DNA of 64,000 bases from a phage. Where the stretch lies: the sequence record PX393108.1, one strand, 5' to 3'. Both the position numbers and the translations under genes were made by a program. Below the pieces are notes generated by a model. The model searched no databases. It saw nothing but the letters and a program-made list of their open reading frames with translations, and was not told where the DNA came from. Below, piece after piece: positions 12,815-36,153 of the stretch. How positions within the stretch are numbered: the first letter of the stretch is position 1; every line of letters begins with the position of its first letter.

Positions 12815-12870
12815 ATAGGGTAATAATACCACAGAGGAACAGTCTTGTAAACAACTTTTTTAAAAATATT
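12815..12870 (-). promoter_or_regulatory. T4-type early promoter (-35 GTTTACA, -10 TATTAT)
   Basis: Minus strand AAAAAAGTTGTTTACAAGACTGTTCCTCTGTGGTATTATTACC. Confidence 0.55.
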
Positions 12871-20561: not shown

Positions 20562-20855
20562 TTATTCCTTAAAATGTGCTTTCAACATCTGATACAAGGA
20601 CCACGCATGTTCATTATTTTCAATAGTAACTTTCATTACCGGGAATTCTGTGAAATCTTCTATCTGTTCTTGCTCTTCAGAAGCTTGGTATGGATTTTCC
20701 ACTTCATCAAAGAACTCAGCTTCGTTAGTAGAGAGCCAGATAAAGTTTTCGTCAAGGATATCAGCGCCGGCACAACGTTTGAGTACACCTGTGGATGTCA
20801 CAATTTTAGTAGGACGACTGAGATGGTCAACATCTAAAATTTTAAAAGGTTCCAT
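20562..20855 (-). CDS. Hypothetical acidic protein (97 aa)
   Basis: ORF; acidic composition. Confidence 0.55.
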
Positions 20856-20965
20856 ACCTAAACGTCGTGCGTAGATTCCGTTATCAGTATGGTCTTTAAT
20901 AAAAGCTTCTTAAGCTTGTTTATTTTTAAATTGATACCATTTATTAACTTCAAATCTAATAGCCA

Positions 20966-21181
20966 TTAATAAATTTCCTTCCAGTAAGTTGTACCGTCTT
21001 CAGTGATTTCACGGAATACACCATAAATCGGTTGTTTATCACCAACCTTTTCATACACATAAACTGAAGTCAAGTGAGTAAACTTAACGGTATGTTCTTT
21101 TTGAACTACTACCAAATCTGGATCAAATAATACATCTTCAAATTCGTCATTAGTGCAATTCTGAACAATTTTACGTTTCAT
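20966..21181 (-). CDS. Hypothetical protein (71 aa); size and position compatible with T4 cef
   Basis: Positional inference only. Confidence 0.45.
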   Translation of the reverse strand: MKRKIVQNCTNDEFEDVLFDPDLVVVQKEHTVKFTHLTSVYVYEKVGDKQPIYGVFREITEDGTTYWKEIY

Positions 21182-22094: not shown

Positions 22095-22140
22095 CGCGGG
22101 ACCATTATACTCTGGTCCCAAGAGTTTGTAAACTAGCTTA
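22095..22140 (-). promoter_or_regulatory. T4-type early promoter (-35 GTTTACA, 17 nt, -10 TATAAT)
   Basis: Minus strand GTTTACAAACTCTTGGGACCAGAGTATAAT overlapping the stop of the upstream paralogue. Confidence 0.55.
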
Positions 22141-23099: not shown

Positions 23100-23145
23100 T
23101 ATGGTGTTATAATACCATAACTAACCGAGGAAGTAAACAACTTTT
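23100..23145 (-). promoter_or_regulatory. T4-type early promoter (-35 GTTTACT, -10 TATTAT)
   Basis: Minus strand AAAAAGTTGTTTACTTCCTCGGTTAGTTATGGTATTAT. Confidence 0.55.
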
Positions 23146-31500: not shown

Positions 31501-31701
31501 ATGGTACAAAAATTAATGGCACTTGTTAATGCCATAAAAGGTAATAAAAAACGTATAGCTTTTACTATTTCTGCTATGGTAGGAATTTTACTTTGGAATT
31601 TTGTTTTATCACCAATTGCTATTGCTCATGGTGTTAATATTCCAGTAATTACTCTTGATACATTCGTAGATTTAGCATTTGCTTTAGTTGGGTTAATTTA
31701 A
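31501..31701 (+). CDS. Small membrane protein (66 aa) on the opposite strand in the 56-61 gap
   Basis: Strong Shine-Dalgarno AAGGAGG 6 nt before the ATG; two hydrophobic helices. Confidence 0.45.
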   Translation: MVQKLMALVNAIKGNKKRIAFTISAMVGILLWNFVLSPIAIAHGVNIPVITLDTFVDLAFALVGLI

Positions 31702-32726
31702 ATCTTAGCATATTTAGATAGCCGCATTTTAGCCATCAACCCCTGGGCAATATTATTTTTCATATATTCCATAATTTGTTCAGGGGTTGCACCTTCCTTT
31801 CTAATCATATCATTAACATCTTTTGATTTCCAGGGAGATTTGTCCCAAAACATAACCCTTTCTCCTGCATCAACTAATTTAGTCATTCGTTTAATAGTGT
31901 CAGGATGACGAGGTTCATTATCTAAAACCCACACACGTCTATCTTTAAATGGAACAATTTCTAGGTCTAATTGACCACCTGTAATAGCTATACCATTTTC
32001 AATAAAAAGTGAATCTATAGGTCCTTCTAGAACATATACATCACCATCTTTAACTCGTTCAACGCCATAGATTTTTGTTGCTTCAGGATAAGCTTTGATG
32101 GTGATATATTTTTGAGGAGCATCTTTCTTTAATGCACGTCCTTGAAAAGACTCAGCTTTTCCATTAGCATTATAAATTGGAATAACAAGACGAGGCTCAG
32201 GTATTTCCTTTTTATATGTTCCCGGTGCTATGCTATTAACTAATTTAGGCCATTCGGTTGTAAACCAAAGATATTTCCATTTATCCTTTGGAATACAACG
32301 AGCTTTTACATATTTTATAATTGGATGGTCTTCCGCCAGTTTATCTAATCTAATGCATGACGGAAGAGATTTAATTATTTTCTTCTCAGGTTGTTTAGGA
32401 AGTTCTTTAGGTTTTTCTACTGGACGACTTTTACCTTTTTCTTTTCTTATTTCAAAGATATACTCACGATATAAATCAGGTTCAAACTCCTTTAAATATA
32501 TTCCGATTGGTGCATGATAGTTGCAATTATAACAATGAATATTTCCTTCATTATTATCGCCATAATACCATCCACGGGCTTTATTTTGGTCGGTTTTTGA
32601 ATCTCCACAAACAGGGCATCTAAACCGCAATTTAAAAGTTGAACTATTATTTACTTGTGTGAATTTAGGTAAATGAGCTAATGCACGGTATGCAAACTCA
32701 TTATCAATCCAAGGTATTGATGACAT
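31698..32726 (-). CDS. 61: DNA primase gp61
   Basis: 342 aa; zinc-ribbon CPVCGDSK…CYNC and TOPRIM-like region; matches T4 gp61. Confidence 0.95.
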   Translation of the reverse strand: MSSIPWIDNEFAYRALAHLPKFTQVNNSSTFKLRFRCPVCGDSKTDQNKARGWYYGDNNEGNIHCYNCNYHAPIGIYLKEFEPDLYREYIFEIRKEKGKSRPVEKPKELPKQPEKKIIKSLPSCIRLDKLAEDHPIIKYVKARCIPKDKWKYLWFTTEWPKLVNSIAPGTYKKEIPEPRLVIPIYNANGKAESFQGRALKKDAPQKYITIKAYPEATKIYGVERVKDGDVYVLEGPIDSLFIENGIAITGGQLDLEIVPFKDRRVWVLDNEPRHPDTIKRMTKLVDAGERVMFWDKSPWKSKDVNDMIRKEGATPEQIMEYMKNNIAQGLMAKMRLSKYAKI

Positions 32727-32894
32727 TTTTACTCTTCTTTTTCTTTAGATTCCTCTTTTTTCTTTTTAGGAATCTGTTCAGGACCTTTATTTACTACAGC
32801 ACCTGACGTTGTTCCAGTAGAGATATTTTCAGGATTACCACCCGAATCTCCAGCTACCATATCTTCTTTAATAAATTCTTTATATGTTTTCATA

Positions 32895-33251
32895 TTAACC
32901 TCTATTCATAAAAGCATTAAAAATTTGGTCATCAATCGATGGAATAGCAACCTTTTCGGCATCATTTAGCAAATCATTAATTTCATCAGATAGCATAACG
33001 CATGTACCTTTATTTCCTGTAATTGTTACTGCGCAATTACGAACGTTTTCTTTATCAAATTTTAGGTTAATATTTTCGTAGTGAAAATCCTTTAATGCCG
33101 AATATATCTTTAAAATGAAATTGTCTTTTACTACAATAAACCCAACTTCACTATTAAAACGTGGTTCATGGAAACTGTAATAAACCTTTTCATCTATAAA
33201 ATCGTATGAAATTTTTTCCATTTTTAAATATGAAAATTCAGAACTATACAT
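32895..33251 (-). CDS. Hypothetical protein (118 aa), 61.1-like position
   Basis: ORF. Confidence 0.55.
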   Translation of the reverse strand: MYSSEFSYLKMEKISYDFIDEKVYYSFHEPRFNSEVGFIVVKDNFILKIYSALKDFHYENINLKFDKENVRNCAVTITGNKGTCVMLSDEINDLLNDAEKVAIPSIDDQIFNAFMNRG

Positions 33252-33263
33252 ACTAACCTCTAA

Positions 33264-33557
33264 TTACTCACCTACCACTTCAGCGATGATATTTTTATTA
33301 TTGAAGTTTTTATCACAATACAGAACGTAATTATACTGCATTACACCACCAGACTTAAGCTGTTTTTGCACTTCAGCTTTCATTTCAGGACGATCACGCT
33401 CAACGATATTCATAATATCCGCTTCAATTTGAGTTTCAACTTCAGTCTGATCTGCAGTCATAGACCATTCACACAAATCTTTGTCATAACCCGCCATAGC
33501 AGGCTGAGCAGCGCAAGAAGATAAAGCAAAAATTGCAGCAAAGATAAATTTTTTCAT
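33264..33557 (-). CDS. sp: Periplasmic protein Spackle (superinfection exclusion, lysozyme inhibitor)
   Basis: 97 aa with cleavable signal peptide MKKFIFAAIFALSSCAAQPAMA; size and position between 61 and dmd match T4 sp. Confidence 0.7.
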   Translation of the reverse strand: MKKFIFAAIFALSSCAAQPAMAGYDKDLCEWSMTADQTEVETQIEADIMNIVERDRPEMKAEVQKQLKSGGVMQYNYVLYCDKNFNNKNIIAEVVGE

Positions 33558-33660
33558 GATAATCTCCTCAGTAGTTTATGTTTATAGTATCTCAATTTTC
33601 AACAAAAGTAAACACTAGTAGAAGCAAACAGACAAATTGCAATAATTGGTGATTTCAGTT

Positions 33661-33855
33661 TCATTCTTCTCCTCCTTCATGTTGATGAACATATTCTTTT
33701 TCAAGTCTAGAGCACAAGTTTTCATATTCAACTAATAAAAATGAATCAAGTGCGTTATTTCTATGCTGACACCGTTCTTGTAAAGAATCCATCTCTGAAC
33801 GTTGTTCTTGTGTTAATAATTGATAACCTGATACTTTAGACATTTTGTTCTCCAT
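33661..33855 (-). CDS. Hypothetical protein (64 aa)
   Basis: ORF downstream of an early promoter. Confidence 0.5.
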   Translation of the reverse strand: MENKMSKVSGYQLLTQEQRSEMDSLQERCQHRNNALDSFLLVEYENLCSRLEKEYVHQHEGGEE

Positions 33856-33864
33856 TTACTCGTT

Positions 33865-33910
33865 TGTTTTGATAGGTCTATAATAACATGTTTAAAACAA
33901 AAGTAAACTA
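33865..33910 (-). promoter_or_regulatory. T4-type early promoter (-35 GTTTACT, -10 TATTAT)
   Basis: Minus strand GTTTACTTTTGTTTTAAACATGTTATTAT. Confidence 0.5.
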
Positions 33911-34162
33911 TTTTATTTCCTCAAGTTCGTTAATCAATAAAAGTTCTCTGGCGCTAAAAACAAAGAAAAATGTGTTCCCATCAACCAGAGCATGACCGCT
34001 AATAGAACACCCTCTGCGGAATTTAGAAACTTCACAATCTAGAACTGTAAAGGGTTTTAATCCTATGACTTTAGCTGTGCGTCTATTCAGTTCACAACCA
34101 CTCGCGAATTTTTCCAAATCTTCTTCTGATTTAAACTGATATTCTCTATTAACTAGCATCAT
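33908..34162 (-). CDS. Hypothetical protein (84 aa)
   Basis: ORF downstream of an early promoter. Confidence 0.5.
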   Translation of the reverse strand: MMLVNREYQFKSEEDLEKFASGCELNRRTAKVIGLKPFTVLDCEVSKFRRGCSISGHALVDGNTFFFVFSARELLLINELEEIK

Positions 34163-34189
34163 TTTCTTTTCTCCGCGATTAGCTGATAG

Positions 34190-34230
34190 AATTACTATAA
34201 CACAACTCTATCAGCTTGTAAACTACTATT
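34190..34230 (-). promoter_or_regulatory. T4-type early promoter (-35 GTTTACA, 17 nt, -10 TATAGT)
   Basis: Minus strand GTTTACAAGCTGATAGAGTTGTGTTATAGT. Confidence 0.55.
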
Positions 34231-34483
34231 TTAAAACTTCTGTATAATCACATGTTACAAACTGTTTCTCTAACTTGACGATTTTACGAAAGTATCTTTT
34301 GCATTGGCGAATCTGCCGCTTTGTAGGGCGCACAGCAAACTTAATAAATTCCACTCGACCAAATGGAGGGCTTTCTTCTGCTGGAATATCTAATACCAAT
34401 TCCCACGTATCTGCGATAAGTGCTTTGAATTGAGTATTTTTCCTGACGTTATACGGAGTAGGTTTAAATAAAACAATATGCAT
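34226..34483 (-). CDS. Basic protein (about 85 aa) in the position of T4 61.4 (tifA-like)
   Basis: ORF trimmed to the Met immediately after the dmd stop; lies directly downstream of dmd as 61.4 does in T4. Confidence 0.45.
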   Translation of the reverse strand: MHIVLFKPTPYNVRKNTQFKALIADTWELVLDIPAEESPPFGRVEFIKFAVRPTKRQIRQCKRYFRKIVKLEKQFVTCDYTEVLK

Positions 34484-34484
34484 A

Positions 34485-34667
34485 TTATCCTCGGCAATCC
34501 ACTTCGCATACTTTCTTGTCATCAATGAAAGCTTTAACTAGCGCTTTATTAACTTCAGCATATTGAGTAGTAGCCCATTGAACGTCATCTTTCATCATTG
34601 TGATTTCTTTAGTAAACATGCTTTCATTCTTAAACCACCCCATAAAAACTACCTTTACCAATTCCAT
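34485..34667 (-). CDS. dmd: Dmd, antitoxin against host RnlA/LsoA
   Basis: 60 aa, MELVKVVFMGWFKNESMFTKEITMMKDDVQWATTQYAEVNKALVKAFIDDKKVCEVDCRG; matches T4 Dmd in size and sequence as I recall it. Confidence 0.8.
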   Translation of the reverse strand: MELVKVVFMGWFKNESMFTKEITMMKDDVQWATTQYAEVNKALVKAFIDDKKVCEVDCRG

Positions 34668-34694
34668 AAAAATCTCCTCATTTAACCAACAAGA

Positions 34695-34735
34695 CTACTA
34701 TACCATAGTCTTGTCGGCTTGTAAACTAAAATTTT
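34695..34735 (-). promoter_or_regulatory. T4-type early promoter for dmd (-35 GTTTACA, 17 nt, -10 TATAGT), overlapping the gene 41 stop
   Basis: Minus strand GTTTACAAGCCGACAAGACTATGGTATAGT. Confidence 0.55.
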
Positions 34736-36153
34736 AATTCATTTGCCAAAGCATCTAACTGAGCTCGAGCGGATTCGTTTCTTTGATAGCGATTCTGTTC
34801 AGCCTGAATCTGCTGTGAACCTGCTACTTCGTTCACTTCAGTTGGAGTAGAATCTTGTTCAATTTCTACCCATTTCTGATTTCCTTTTTGAACACCCATC
34901 AAAAACTTATTCCATTTATTCTTATCACCGTATCGTGATTTGATTTGCTTAATGAGTTGTTGTTCAGCAGCTGCTAACTCCTCGGTTTCAATGACCGCAA
35001 GCATAAAATCGGCTGTTGCTGGAAGACCGGCAGATTCTGCAATATCGCTCATGTTAACATCAGAAGAATCCCAAGCTTGTTTACCAACCTGTGCTGCAGT
35101 CCAAAGAACAGTTTCGGTTTCAACAGCCAGAGCACGCAATTCCTCTGCGATAGCTTTAACAGTTGTGTAACTATTTTCTGAATAAACTCTGATGCGACAA
35201 GATTTACAAATACCTAGATAGTCAACAATAATGATTGTTGGAACAAAATTCTTCTTGAGCTTTAATTCGTTTAAAAGCGATCGAAATGTATTAGCGTCTG
35301 CTCCACCAGTAGGATACTGTTTAACGATTAAACGTCCAAGAGTAGATTTCTCACGCCATTTTTCCATTTTTCCTTTATATTCAGCGTAAGAAATATGCCC
35401 ATCATCAATGTCATCAAGAGAAACGTCAAGCATATTAGCATCAATACGTTTAGCACAGACTTCTTCTGCCATTTCCATGGAAATGTAAAGAACATTGTGT
35501 CCGAGCTGCAAATAATCTGCTGCCAATGAACACAATCCTAATGACTTACCAACGTTAACACCAGCCATTAAAACGTTCAGTGTTCCAGTCTCAGCTCCGC
35601 CTTTAGTAATTTTATTTAGAATTTTGAGTTTAAATGGAACCTTACGAGCTTTATTCATATAAGATAGCCAACGTGCTTCGTAGTCATCCATCCAATCATG
35701 ACCAACGTAGCTATCAAATGAAATTGATAATGCTTGGCGCATGATGTCAGGAATAGCACCTACATCTGGCATTTTCTTATTTCGTTTTTCCGGAGGAAGC
35801 TCAGCATTAGTTTGAATTTCAATTATTTTAGATGTGGCGTTAAACATCGCCCTTTGCTGAACATATTTTTCTGTTTCTTTTACTAACCAGCTATGGTCTT
35901 CCGGAGAATCGGCCAGTTTTGAAATAAGTGTTTTTACACCAGAATATTCTGTTTCAGTAAATGAACTATTTTCTAATGCAACATTTAACGCATTAATAGA
36001 TGGAACGCTATGGTATTCATTAACATGAGATTTAATTAATTTGAATGTATTTTTAGCTGGACCACTTTCAAAATATTCTGAATCCATATATGGCCAAACT
36101 TTTGAAAAATAAGCTTGATCAAATATGAGATGAGAAAGAATAATTTCTACCAC
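34726..36153 (-). CDS. 41: Replicative DNA helicase gp41 (DnaB family)
   Basis: 475 aa; Walker A GVNVGKS; matches T4 gp41. Confidence 0.95.
   Translation of the reverse strand: MVEIILSHLIFDQAYFSKVWPYMDSEYFESGPAKNTFKLIKSHVNEYHSVPSINALNVALENSSFTETEYSGVKTLISKLADSPEDHSWLVKETEKYVQQRAMFNATSKIIEIQTNAELPPEKRNKKMPDVGAIPDIMRQALSISFDSYVGHDWMDDYEARWLSYMNKARKVPFKLKILNKITKGGAETGTLNVLMAGVNVGKSLGLCSLAADYLQLGHNVLYISMEMAEEVCAKRIDANMLDVSLDDIDDGHISYAEYKGKMEKWREKSTLGRLIVKQYPTGGADANTFRSLLNELKLKKNFVPTIIIVDYLGICKSCRIRVYSENSYTTVKAIAEELRALAVETETVLWTAAQVGKQAWDSSDVNMSDIAESAGLPATADFMLAVIETEELAAAEQQLIKQIKSRYGDKNKWNKFLMGVQKGNQKWVEIEQDSTPTEVNEVAGSQQIQAEQNRYQRNESARAQLDALANELKF

What the first reader, a model, noticed from the sequence alone, without database searches (positions are those of the whole stretch)
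33264..34667. Counter-defence / exclusion cluster between primase and helicase: sp, small early ORFs, a 61.4(tifA)-like ORF and dmd, each with its own early promoter
dmd is recognisable by sequence (antitoxin to RnlA/LsoA), sp by signal peptide, size and position, and the basic 85-aa ORF immediately downstream of dmd is in the position of T4 61.4, which I recall as the ToxIN-inhibiting tifA. Three separate early promoters within about 900 bp feed this cluster. The flanking 64-aa and 84-aa ORFs are uncharacterised and are good candidates for additional anti-toxin or anti-defence factors.
Basis: partly seen in the sequence, partly recalled or inferred. Interest (0 to 1): 0.55.

Follow-up and report, generated by a model that had tools for sequence, protein, structure and literature searches.

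The report
T4-type anti-toxin island with extra cassettes
This stretch is the already published "anti-toxin island" of T4-like phages (dmd, tifA and spackle, almost identical to T4), here carrying two extra small early genes of untested function, one of which is a short relative of the T4 protein GoF.

Summary
On the minus strand between helicase gene 41 and primase gene 61 lie dmd (100% identical to T4), tifA/61.4 (98%), an 84-aa ORF, a 64-aa ORF (more likely 60 aa) and sp (97%). A strict T4 early-promoter pattern occurs 12 times in the 64-kb window against 0.05 expected. One of them (Srikant 2022) already calls this region an "anti-TA island", so the core is known.

Corrections: tifA has no promoter of its own and shares dmd's. 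T4 lacks both small ORFs. They are cassettes (early promoter, ribosome-binding site, small ORF) whose presence or absence breaks exactly at the GTTTAC -35 repeats.

New here: the 84-aa ORF is a stand-alone version of the N-terminal SH3/LSm-like barrel of GoF (hhalign 96.8%; AF2 pLDDT 85; Foldseek hit to T4 MotB.1). In three metagenomic T4-like contigs its homologue heads the tifA operon where dmd normally sits. The 60-aa ORF is an orphan predicted as one long acidic helix. An anti-defence role for either ORF is plausible by position only and is untested.

The parts
34697..34726 (-). Early promoter P_dmd (GTTTACA, 17-nt spacer, TGgTATAGT). It drives the dmd-tifA bicistron.
   Evidence: sequence. 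Srikant 2022 states that dmd and 61.4 are driven by one early T4 promoter upstream of dmd.
34686..34717 (-). 15-bp hairpin with the P_dmd -10 box in its loop and 3' arm. Only transcripts reading through from gene 41 could form it.
   Evidence: dG -21.8 kcal/mol, z -5.1; repeat I8
34485..34667 (-). dmd (60 aa), antitoxin against the RnlA and LsoA RNase toxins
   Evidence: 100% identical to T4 Dmd; Pfam Dmd 1.6e-46; PDB 5HY3_B 'Antitoxin Dmd'
34226..34483 (-). tifA / 61.4 (85 aa, pI 9.8), inhibitor of the ToxN toxin. It has no promoter of its own and starts one base after the dmd stop.
   Evidence: 98% identical to T4 gp61.4; Pfam DUF7279 2.2e-20; PT motif followed by a basic stretch (RPTKRQIRQCKRYFRK) read in the sequence; papers
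34194..34223 (-). Early promoter P_ORF84 (GTTTACA, 17-nt spacer, TGtTATAGT)
34181..34216 (-). 14-bp hairpin that encloses the -10 box of P_ORF84, immediately after the tifA stop codon
   Evidence: dG -18.0 kcal/mol, z -3.6; repeat I6
33908..34162 (-). ORF84: a stand-alone homologue of the GoF N-terminal domain (SH3/LSm-like beta-barrel). Absent from T4.
33880..33908 (-). Early promoter P_ORF64 (GTTTACT, 16-nt spacer, TGtTATTAT)
33661..33855 (-). ORF64, probably 60 aa from the ATG at 33843. An acidic orphan protein predicted as a single long helix. Absent from T4.
   Evidence: phrog_37915 1.2e-45 on residues 5-64; single 60-aa homologue cluster; 21 phage records, all at least 95% identical; AF2 helix 12-56, pLDDT 89.7
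33584..33613 (-). Weaker early promoter P_sp (GTTTACT, 17-nt spacer, TACTAT, no TG). It corresponds to the promoter 'downstream of tifA' in T4.
   Evidence: conserved in T4; Srikant 2022 mentions a promoter downstream of tifA
33264..33557 (-). sp (spackle, 97 aa with a signal peptide), a periplasmic superinfection-exclusion protein
   Evidence: 97% identical to T4 Sp; Pfam T4_Spackle 2.8e-45; PDB 6X6O, and 7CN6 starts at residue 23, consistent with a mature chain beginning after AMA
32895..33251 (-). 118-aa paralogue of the C-terminal half of AdfA (gp61.2).
   Evidence: Pfam AdfA 2.3e-8 on profile positions 113-211; 35% identity to T4 gp61.2 residues 109-208; coexists with full-length AdfA in GEP001 and Ozark
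32729..32893 (-). 61.1 (54 aa), function unknown, abutting the primase gene
   Evidence: phrog_1823 7e-34; 96% identical to T4 61.1

Best explanation
This is the anti-toxin ('anti-TA') and exclusion island that T-even phages carry between helicase gene 41 and primase gene 61, in a variant with two more cassettes than T4.

Shown by sequence. One early promoter drives dmd and tifA as a bicistron. Their products are identical and 98% identical, respectively, to the T4 proteins. In T4, Dmd neutralises the RNase toxins RnlA and LsoA, and TifA neutralises ToxN. Two monocistronic cassettes follow, each made of a T4-type early promoter, a Shine-Dalgarno site and a small ORF (ORF84, then ORF64/60). After them a weaker promoter precedes sp (periplasmic superinfection exclusion). 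The closely spaced 118-aa AdfA paralogue, 61.1 and gene 61 come next, separated by gaps of 12, 1 and 2 nt.

Also shown. The cassettes come and go by recombination between the repeated -35 regions. T4 lacks both cassettes, phage Ozark lacks only ORF64, and the breakpoints sit exactly on the GTTTAC(TTTTGTT) repeats.

Inferred. All these genes are expressed in the first minutes of infection, before host toxins or abortive-infection systems act. ORF84 is a stand-alone SH3/LSm-like barrel of the GoF/MotB.1/Frd.2 family. It most likely binds an RNA or an RNA-processing protein. ORF60 is an acidic single helix that most likely works by binding a partner protein. Whether either one blocks a host defence is not shown.
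For: Identity to T4 Dmd, TifA and Sp, Pfam hits and PDB matches.

tifA is 61.4 and the 'anti-TA island' concept is published (PMC9391042 and PMC10853763). AdfA is gp61.2.

Promoter pattern: 12 matches against 0.05 expected, three of them in this 847-bp stretch, plus P_sp.

Indel boundaries at the promoter repeats (direct repeat D4).

The ORF84 family stays in this island across genera. In Gaprivervirus SP18 it sits directly after gene 41. In three metagenomic T4-like contigs it is the first gene of an overlapping ORF84h-(ORF50)-tifA-like operon behind one early promoter, and no dmd is found in the 41-61 interval.

All ORFs have T4-like GC content and GC3 and carry a Shine-Dalgarno site.
Against: No functional evidence exists for ORF84 or ORF64. 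They have no hit in PADLOC or NCBIfam, and only a sub-threshold chance Pfam match for ORF64. They do not appear in the accessory-gene screens whose supplements I searched.

Wild-type GoF itself has no known function, and its deletion has no phenotype under laboratory conditions. Family membership therefore says little about activity.

ORF64 is known only from near-identical copies, so conservation cannot confirm that it is coding.

Sp is an exclusion factor rather than an anti-defence factor, so position in the island does not guarantee an anti-toxin role.
Confidence: 0.85

Rival explanations
1. ORF84, ORF64 or both are genuine additional anti-toxin or anti-defence factors, making a fourth or fifth member of the anti-TA island. 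ORF84 in particular would act like Dmd on an RNase-type toxin or abortive-infection nuclease.
For: They sit between tifA and sp, each behind its own strong early promoter. In contigs L011-L013 the ORF84 homologue heads the tifA-like operon at the position dmd holds in T4, and dmd is absent from that interval. The family belongs to the GoF lineage, which has been linked to mRNA stability. Patchy, cassette-like distribution is typical of counter-defence genes.
Confidence: 0.22
2. ORF84 and ORF64 are host-takeover or RNA-metabolism modulators, or phage-versus-phage factors, with no role against host immunity. Alternatively they are nearly neutral passengers spread by promoter-mediated cassette shuffling.
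For: GoF-family proteins are early, abundant and dispensable, and no defence target is known for them. Their neighbour sp is an exclusion factor rather than an anti-defence factor. The PeSL papers describe orphan ORFs being moved around by promoter/stem-loop repeats irrespective of function. T4 grows well without either ORF.
Against: The ORF84 family is retained within this one island in at least three gene arrangements and two genera, with 57-80% identical homologues. That argues for selection and for a functional link to the island.
Confidence: 0.5
3. ORF64 is not a real gene. It would be only spacer sequence between two early promoters.
For: All 21 database copies are at least 95% identical, so no evolutionary test is possible. 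It matches no domain family above threshold.
Against: It has its own extended -10 early promoter and a GGAG six bases before the ATG at 33843. GC3 is 0.15, as in neighbouring genes. PP01 differs by an in-frame 3-bp indel. AF2 predicts a confident amphipathic helix from almost no alignment. It was independently called as a 60-aa protein in metagenomes.
Confidence: 0.08

Closest known systems
T4 dmd-tifA(61.4) operon and the 'anti-TA island' (Srikant, Guegler & Laub 2022, eLife; Guegler et al. 2023/24, NAR)
   Same: Same genes (100% and 98% identical), same order, same early promoter with a near-identical sequence, and the same flanks (gene 41 upstream, sp downstream).
   Different: A 613-bp insertion between the tifA stop and the sp promoter carries two extra promoter-ORF cassettes. 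Full-length adfA (61.2) is missing and only the 118-aa paralogue is present.
GoF / MotB.1 / Frd.2 family of LSm-like (SH3-like) fold proteins of Tevenvirinae (Kim ... Hinton 2025, PMC12152347)
   Same: ORF84 aligns over its whole length to the GoF N-terminal domain. The predicted barrel has FeoA and IdeR among its neighbours, as reported for GoF, and it hits T4 MotB.1 in BFVD.
   Different: ORF84 has only the N-terminal domain (84 aa against 134-141 aa) and no linker or C-terminal domain. It lies in the 41-61 island rather than at the goF locus. It carries family-invariant C23, C43, C52 and H57, which GoF lacks.
PeSL (promoter-early stem-loop) cassettes of RB49/phi1 and other T4-like phages (Arbiol 2010; Comeau 2014)
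   Same: Small orphan ORFs are each preceded by an early promoter. A stem-loop accompanies two of the four promoters. Insertion and deletion differences between relatives have breakpoints in the repeated promoter motif.
   Different: The promoters are of the T4 early type (GTTTAC) rather than plain sigma-70 consensus. The stems are A+T-rich and enclose the -10 box, with no polyG/polyC. This is the 'analogue' the authors describe for T-even internal-protein loci. No U-tract follows the stems, and the terminator scan found none.
T4 Spackle (Sp), an inhibitor of the gp5 tail lysozyme
   Same: 97% identical, with the same signal peptide and length.
   Different: Three conservative substitutions (T8A, A13S, K53E).

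Membership tests
Dmd (PF17587) | Sequence match to T4 Dmd and to the Pfam model | tested here: met
   60/60 identical; Pfam 156.9 bits against a cut-off of 27; PDB 5HY3_B at 1.8e-37
Dmd (PF17587) | Neutralises the RnlA and LsoA toxins | not testable with these tools
   Inferred from 100% identity to the T4 protein that was tested experimentally (cited)
TifA (gp61.4; DUF7279, PF23945) | Homology to T4 gp61.4 | tested here: met
   83/85 identical; Pfam 72.8 bits against a cut-off of 24.5
TifA (gp61.4; DUF7279, PF23945) | Conserved PT motif capping a basic C-terminal helix (Guegler 2023) | tested here: met
   The sequence reads ...FAVRPTKRQIRQCKRYFRKIVK..., identical to T4 in this stretch. The motif is described.
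TifA (gp61.4; DUF7279, PF23945) | Co-transcribed downstream of dmd from the dmd early promoter | tested here: met
   There is a one-base gap between the dmd stop and the tifA ATG, and no promoter match lies between them
TifA (gp61.4; DUF7279, PF23945) | Inhibits ToxN and binds RNA | not testable with these tools
   TifA from T2 and T6 (over 96% identical to T4) rescued ToxN toxicity. This copy is 98% identical to T4 TifA.
Spackle (PF25676) | Sequence match plus an N-terminal signal peptide | tested here: met
   94/97 identical; Pfam 153.3 bits; the crystallised 7CN6 chain starts at residue 23, after AMA
GoF/MotB.1/Frd.2 LSm-like fold family (ORF84) | Sequence homology to the GoF N-terminal domain | tested here: met
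   BLASTP E 2e-8 over 41 aa; hhalign probability 96.8%, E 2e-10; about 30% identity over 93% of ORF84 to many GoF proteins
GoF/MotB.1/Frd.2 LSm-like fold family (ORF84) | Bent five-stranded antiparallel beta-sheet (SH3/LSm-like) with FeoA, IdeR and Hfq-type structural neighbours | tested here: met
GoF/MotB.1/Frd.2 LSm-like fold family (ORF84) | Two-domain build: N-terminal domain, flexible linker, C-terminal domain | tested here: not met
   ORF84 ends where the GoF N-terminal domain ends. It is a single-domain member.
GoF/MotB.1/Frd.2 LSm-like fold family (ORF84) | Effect on RNA stability or RNA binding | not testable with these tools
   Even for GoF, only the D25Y mutant has a measured effect
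AdfA (gp61.2, PF23813), for the 118-aa ORF | Full-length match to AdfA (about 210 aa) | tested here: not met
   Only profile positions 113-211 match (34.1 bits against a cut-off of 27), with 35% identity to the T4 C-terminal half. True AdfA (72% identical to T4) coexists with this ORF in GEP001.
AdfA (gp61.2, PF23813), for the 118-aa ORF | Histidine at the position needed for DarT1 neutralisation (H164 in the paper's numbering) | tested here: inconclusive
   In the BLASTP alignment, the His of the T4 stretch ENIINHIA aligns with a Cys (ENVRNCAV). That this is the critical His is my assumption from the description.
PeSL-type mobile promoter cassettes | Early promoter joined to a stem-loop, repeated between small orphan ORFs | tested here: met
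   Four promoters. Significant hairpins occur at two of them (z -5.1 and -3.6). The other two are not significant.
PeSL-type mobile promoter cassettes | Indels between relatives have breakpoints in the repeated motif | tested here: met
   Window against T4, window against Ozark, and an 18-nt direct repeat flanking ORF64 (D4)
PeSL-type mobile promoter cassettes | G/C-rich (GGGG...CCCC) stem acting as a terminator; formation of mini-circles | tested here: not met
   The stems are A+T-rich, no U-tract follows, and the scan found no terminator-like site. Mini-circles cannot be tested here.

The most novel reading that the evidence does not exclude
ORF84 defines a new class of small counter-defence proteins: a stand-alone GoF-type SH3/LSm-like barrel that can take the place of Dmd at the head of the tifA operon. 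It would neutralise an RNase-type toxin or abortive-infection nuclease, which would give the enigmatic GoF/MotB.1/Frd.2 family its first physiological function. The ORF60 helix could be a second new inhibitor.
Probability: 0.2. Interest if true: 0.55.

Novelty: new member of a known kind. Interest (0 to 1): 0.3.

Why it matters
The core (dmd, tifA, sp and early promoters) simply re-identifies a published island, so by itself it adds nothing. The useful outcome is a sharper experimental target. ORF84 is a minimal member of the GoF family, whose wild-type function is still unknown. It is tied to tifA in three different gene arrangements, including one where it sits in dmd's position. Testing it against RNase toxins could both extend the anti-TA island and give the GoF family a function. 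The locus is also a clean example of T-even early promoters acting as recombination joints for accessory-gene cassettes.

Tried and rejected
- PADLOC and NCBIfam scans of all the small ORFs gave nothing relevant.
- An Rfam scan of 32600-34900 at E up to 1 gave no hits.
- The terminator scan found none.
- An exhaustive HMMER search of 1.84 billion representatives with the ORF84 profile found one real relative (P0007). The other hits were eukaryotic C2H2 zinc-finger repeats. I reject these as spurious matches to the KPF..L.C....F....C....H string (WT1 at E 0.9).
- PDB sequence searches for ORF64, ORF84 and TifA found nothing.
- ORF64 was not sent to fold search, because a single helix gives meaningless matches.
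- I tested the RefSeq label 'goF mRNA metabolism modulator' for ORF84. It is a paralogue holding the N-terminal domain only, not GoF. A separate goF locus lies at 20562-20966.
- I tested whether the 118-aa ORF is AdfA. It is a C-terminal paralogue, not the orthologue.
- I searched the supplements of two accessory-gene screens for the ORF64, ORF84 and TifA peptides. Only Dmd is present, as a control.
- I could not check whether C23, C43, C52 and H57 of ORF84 cluster in three dimensions, because model coordinates are not exposed. No zinc site is claimed.
Full report
**What the window is**

The 2-kb stretch around the finding matches 522 phage records, nearly all Tequatrovirus. The best match is Shigella phage SH-1 at 99.1%, and PP01, ime09 and others cover it fully at about 97.6%. 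It is a T4-like phage but not T4 itself. All genes in the region are on the minus strand. In order of transcription they are:

- gene 41 helicase, 34726-36153
- dmd, 34485-34667
- an 85-aa ORF, 34226-34483
- an 84-aa ORF, 33908-34162
- a 64-aa ORF, 33661-33855
- sp, 33264-33557
- a 118-aa ORF, 32895-33251
- 61.1, 32729-32893
- gene 61 primase, 31698-32726

**Checking the observation**

I compared the ORFs directly with the T4 reference (NC_000866).

| Protein | Identity to T4 |
|---|---|
| Dmd | 60/60 |
| 85-aa ORF vs gp61.4 | 83/85 |
| Sp | 94/97 |

- Pfam agrees: Dmd 1.6e-46, DUF7279 2.2e-20 and T4_Spackle 2.8e-45.
- Dmd matches PDB 5HY3_B, named 'Antitoxin Dmd'. Sp matches 6X6O, and the crystallised 7CN6 chain begins at residue 23, which fits a signal peptide cleaved after AMA.
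Srikant et al. 2022 renamed 61.4 as tifA (ToxN inhibitory factor A). They state that dmd and 61.4 form a two-gene locus driven by an early promoter upstream of dmd.
- Guegler et al. describe the PT motif and basic helix of TifA. The window's copy has both (RPTKRQIRQCKRYFRK). Its only two differences from T4 lie in the last five residues.

**Promoters**

- The generic scan finds TTTACA-17-TATAGT with an upstream TG before dmd and before ORF84, and TTTACT-16-TATTAT before ORF64.
- A stricter T4-early pattern, GTTTAC-N14-15-TGnTATnnT, matches 12 times in the 64 kb. All matches are on the minus strand, and dinucleotide shuffles predict 0.05. Three of the 12 fall between 33880 and 34726.
- A relaxed pattern adds a weaker site before sp at 33584-33613, which has no TG. 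T4 conserves this site, and it corresponds to the 'promoter downstream of tifA' mentioned by Srikant et al..
The title's 'each with its own early promoter' is not right for tifA, whose ATG follows the dmd stop by one base with no promoter between.
- The genes after sp also have no promoter match of their own. The gaps between them are 12, 1 and 2 nt.

**What differs from T4**

- T4 has only about 60 bp between sp and 61.4. Relative to T4, the window has a 613-bp insertion. It runs from just after the tifA stop (AAAATAG|TAGTTTACA...) to just before the -35 box of the sp promoter.
- Phage Ozark has ORF84 but not ORF64. There the ORF84 stop runs straight into a single GTTTACTTTTGTT that continues as the sp promoter.
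- In the window, an 18-nt direct repeat (89% identical) containing this motif flanks ORF64 (repeat D4).
- Each small ORF is therefore a cassette of promoter, ribosome-binding site and ORF, gained or lost by recombination between -35 regions.
- Arbiol and Comeau proposed this behaviour for PeSL elements and described an A+T-rich analogue based on T4 early promoters in T-even phages.
- Two of the four promoters, P_dmd and P_ORF84, lie inside strong hairpins whose loop and 3' arm carry the -10 box (dG -21.8 and -18.0 kcal/mol; z -5.1 and -3.6). Three other early promoters in the window look the same.
- No U-tract follows the hairpins and no terminator-like site was found. Their role (attenuator, 3'-end stabiliser or recombination site) is open.

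**ORF84**

- RefSeq labels the PP01 copy 'goF mRNA metabolism modulator', and it hits phrog_2980.
- It is not GoF. A separate goF locus lies at 20562-20966, and the two share 37% identity over 41 N-terminal residues.
- A profile-profile comparison of the ORF84 family with GoF gives 96.8% probability.
- In a 23-sequence alignment ORF84 aligns end to end with GoF residues 1-92, which is the N-terminal domain only.
- AlphaFold2 on that alignment gives pLDDT 84.9 and pTM 0.70, with five strands and two short helices.
- Foldseek against viral models finds the 82-aa homologue (TM 0.86) and T4 MotB.1 (P39415, E 3e-4). Most of the remaining named hits are uncharacterised T4-like phage proteins.
- ORF84 is thus a single-domain member of the GoF/MotB.1/Frd.2 LSm-like family.
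- The family is narrow. About 71 Tequatrovirus records carry near-identical copies, a 57% homologue occurs in Gaprivervirus, and there are a few metagenomic relatives at 76-80%.

**Where ORF84 homologues sit**

- In SP18 the homologue follows gene 41 directly. The same island there also holds dmd, sp, a 119-aa AdfA-C-like ORF and a DUF7279 (TifA-like) ORF, in a different order.
- In three metagenomic T4-like contigs the 76-80% homologues sit behind one hairpin-type early promoter. Each is the first gene of an operon with a TifA-like gene. In L011 the TifA-like gene starts directly after the ORF84 homologue's stop. In L012 and L013 it follows an intervening 50-aa ORF with overlapping stop and start codons.
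- tblastn finds no dmd in these loci, and L012 spans the whole uvsX-to-primase interval.
- The ORF84 homologue therefore occupies the position that dmd has in T4. This is the strongest hint, though still circumstantial, that the family works alongside or in place of the RNase-toxin inhibitors.

**ORF64**

- The second ATG (33843) has GGAG six bases upstream. The only database cluster is 60 aa long, and the PHROG profile covers residues 5-64. The product is probably 60 aa.
- It occurs in 21 phage records, all at least 95% identical, so it is an orphan.
- AlphaFold2 predicts one long helix (residues 12-56, pLDDT 89.7). The 64-aa form has pI about 4.9.
- Its own promoter, its Shine-Dalgarno site, T4-like GC3 and an in-frame 3-bp indel in PP01 all argue that it is a real gene.
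- Nothing indicates its function.

**The left flank**

- The 118-aa ORF matches only the C-terminal half of Pfam AdfA and is 35% identical to T4 gp61.2 residues 109-208.
- GEP001 and Ozark carry this ORF plus a true AdfA that is 72% identical to T4. The window's phage therefore lacks adfA proper.
- Natural absence of adfA from some T-even phages, such as T2, is documented.

**Verdict**

Its core is the published T-even anti-TA island. What is not yet in the literature I could search is summarised below.

- ORF84 is a minimal member of the GoF N-terminal domain family.
- Its homologues persist in this island across gene arrangements, and in some phages one replaces dmd.
- ORF64 and ORF84 are cassettes gained and lost at the promoter repeats.

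These points give testable hypotheses, not demonstrated functions. I rate the finding as a new member of a known kind, with modest interest.

Noticed in passing
window 20562-20966 (minus strand); stop codon at 20910-20912: The window's own goF gene carries an in-frame ochre stop: codon 19 is TAA where T4 has CAA. The three closest relatives at this locus (ECO07P2, FL23, JoYop) have an intact 134-aa goF. A 97-aa product from an internal ATG would lack the first part of the barrel. It could be a real loss, a laboratory mutation or a sequencing error.
   Followed up: partly
window 32895-33251: The 118-aa ORF is a paralogue of the C-terminal half of AdfA (anti-DarT factor), not AdfA itself. Full-length adfA is absent from this phage but sits next to the paralogue in GEP001 and Ozark. 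The His thought to be needed for DarT1 neutralisation aligns with a Cys.
   Followed up: partly
window 23109-23138, 22104-22133 and 12823-12852 (minus strand): Three more T4-type early promoters have a long hairpin that encloses the -10 box (dG -23.7, -19.7 and -15.4 kcal/mol; z -7.4, -5.2 and -4.2), like P_dmd and P_ORF84. About 5 of the 18 early-promoter-like sites in the window share this build. Its function is unknown.
   Followed up: partly
window 33833-33914: The ORF64 promoter region, together with the first codons of ORF64, is about 80-87% identical to a sequence at or next to motA in several hundred other T4-like phages (including Mosigvirus- and Klebsiella-phage-type genomes). This suggests the promoter module itself is repeated or mobile.
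   Followed up: no
L011:4001-4483; L012:3940-4640; L013:1908-2547: In metagenomic T4-like contigs the ORF84 homologue heads a tightly packed operon with a TifA-like gene (abutting in L011, overlapping stop and start codons in L012 and L013), and dmd is absent from the 41-61 interval. A 253-aa protein with no Pfam or PHROG match lies between gene 41 and this operon (L012:3179-3940).
   Followed up: partly
window 33908-34162 (ORF84 residues C23, C43, C52, H57): Three Cys and one His are invariant in all seven ORF84-family sequences and absent from GoF. C23 aligns next to GoF D25, the site of the D25Y gain-of-function mutation. The string KPF..LDC....F..GC....H draws spurious hits to eukaryotic C2H2 zinc fingers. 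Whether these residues bind a metal could not be checked.
   Followed up: no
L001:3030-3272 (PP01); L009:2051-2293 (Ozark): In some relatives tifA has a different, shorter C-terminal end (80 aa). It diverges from the T4 and window sequence after residue about 75, just before the ORF84 cassette junction.
   Followed up: no
whole window: All 12 strict early-promoter matches, and 17 of the 19 relaxed-pattern matches, are on the minus strand. This fits the leftward early transcription of this part of T4-type genomes.
   Followed up: no
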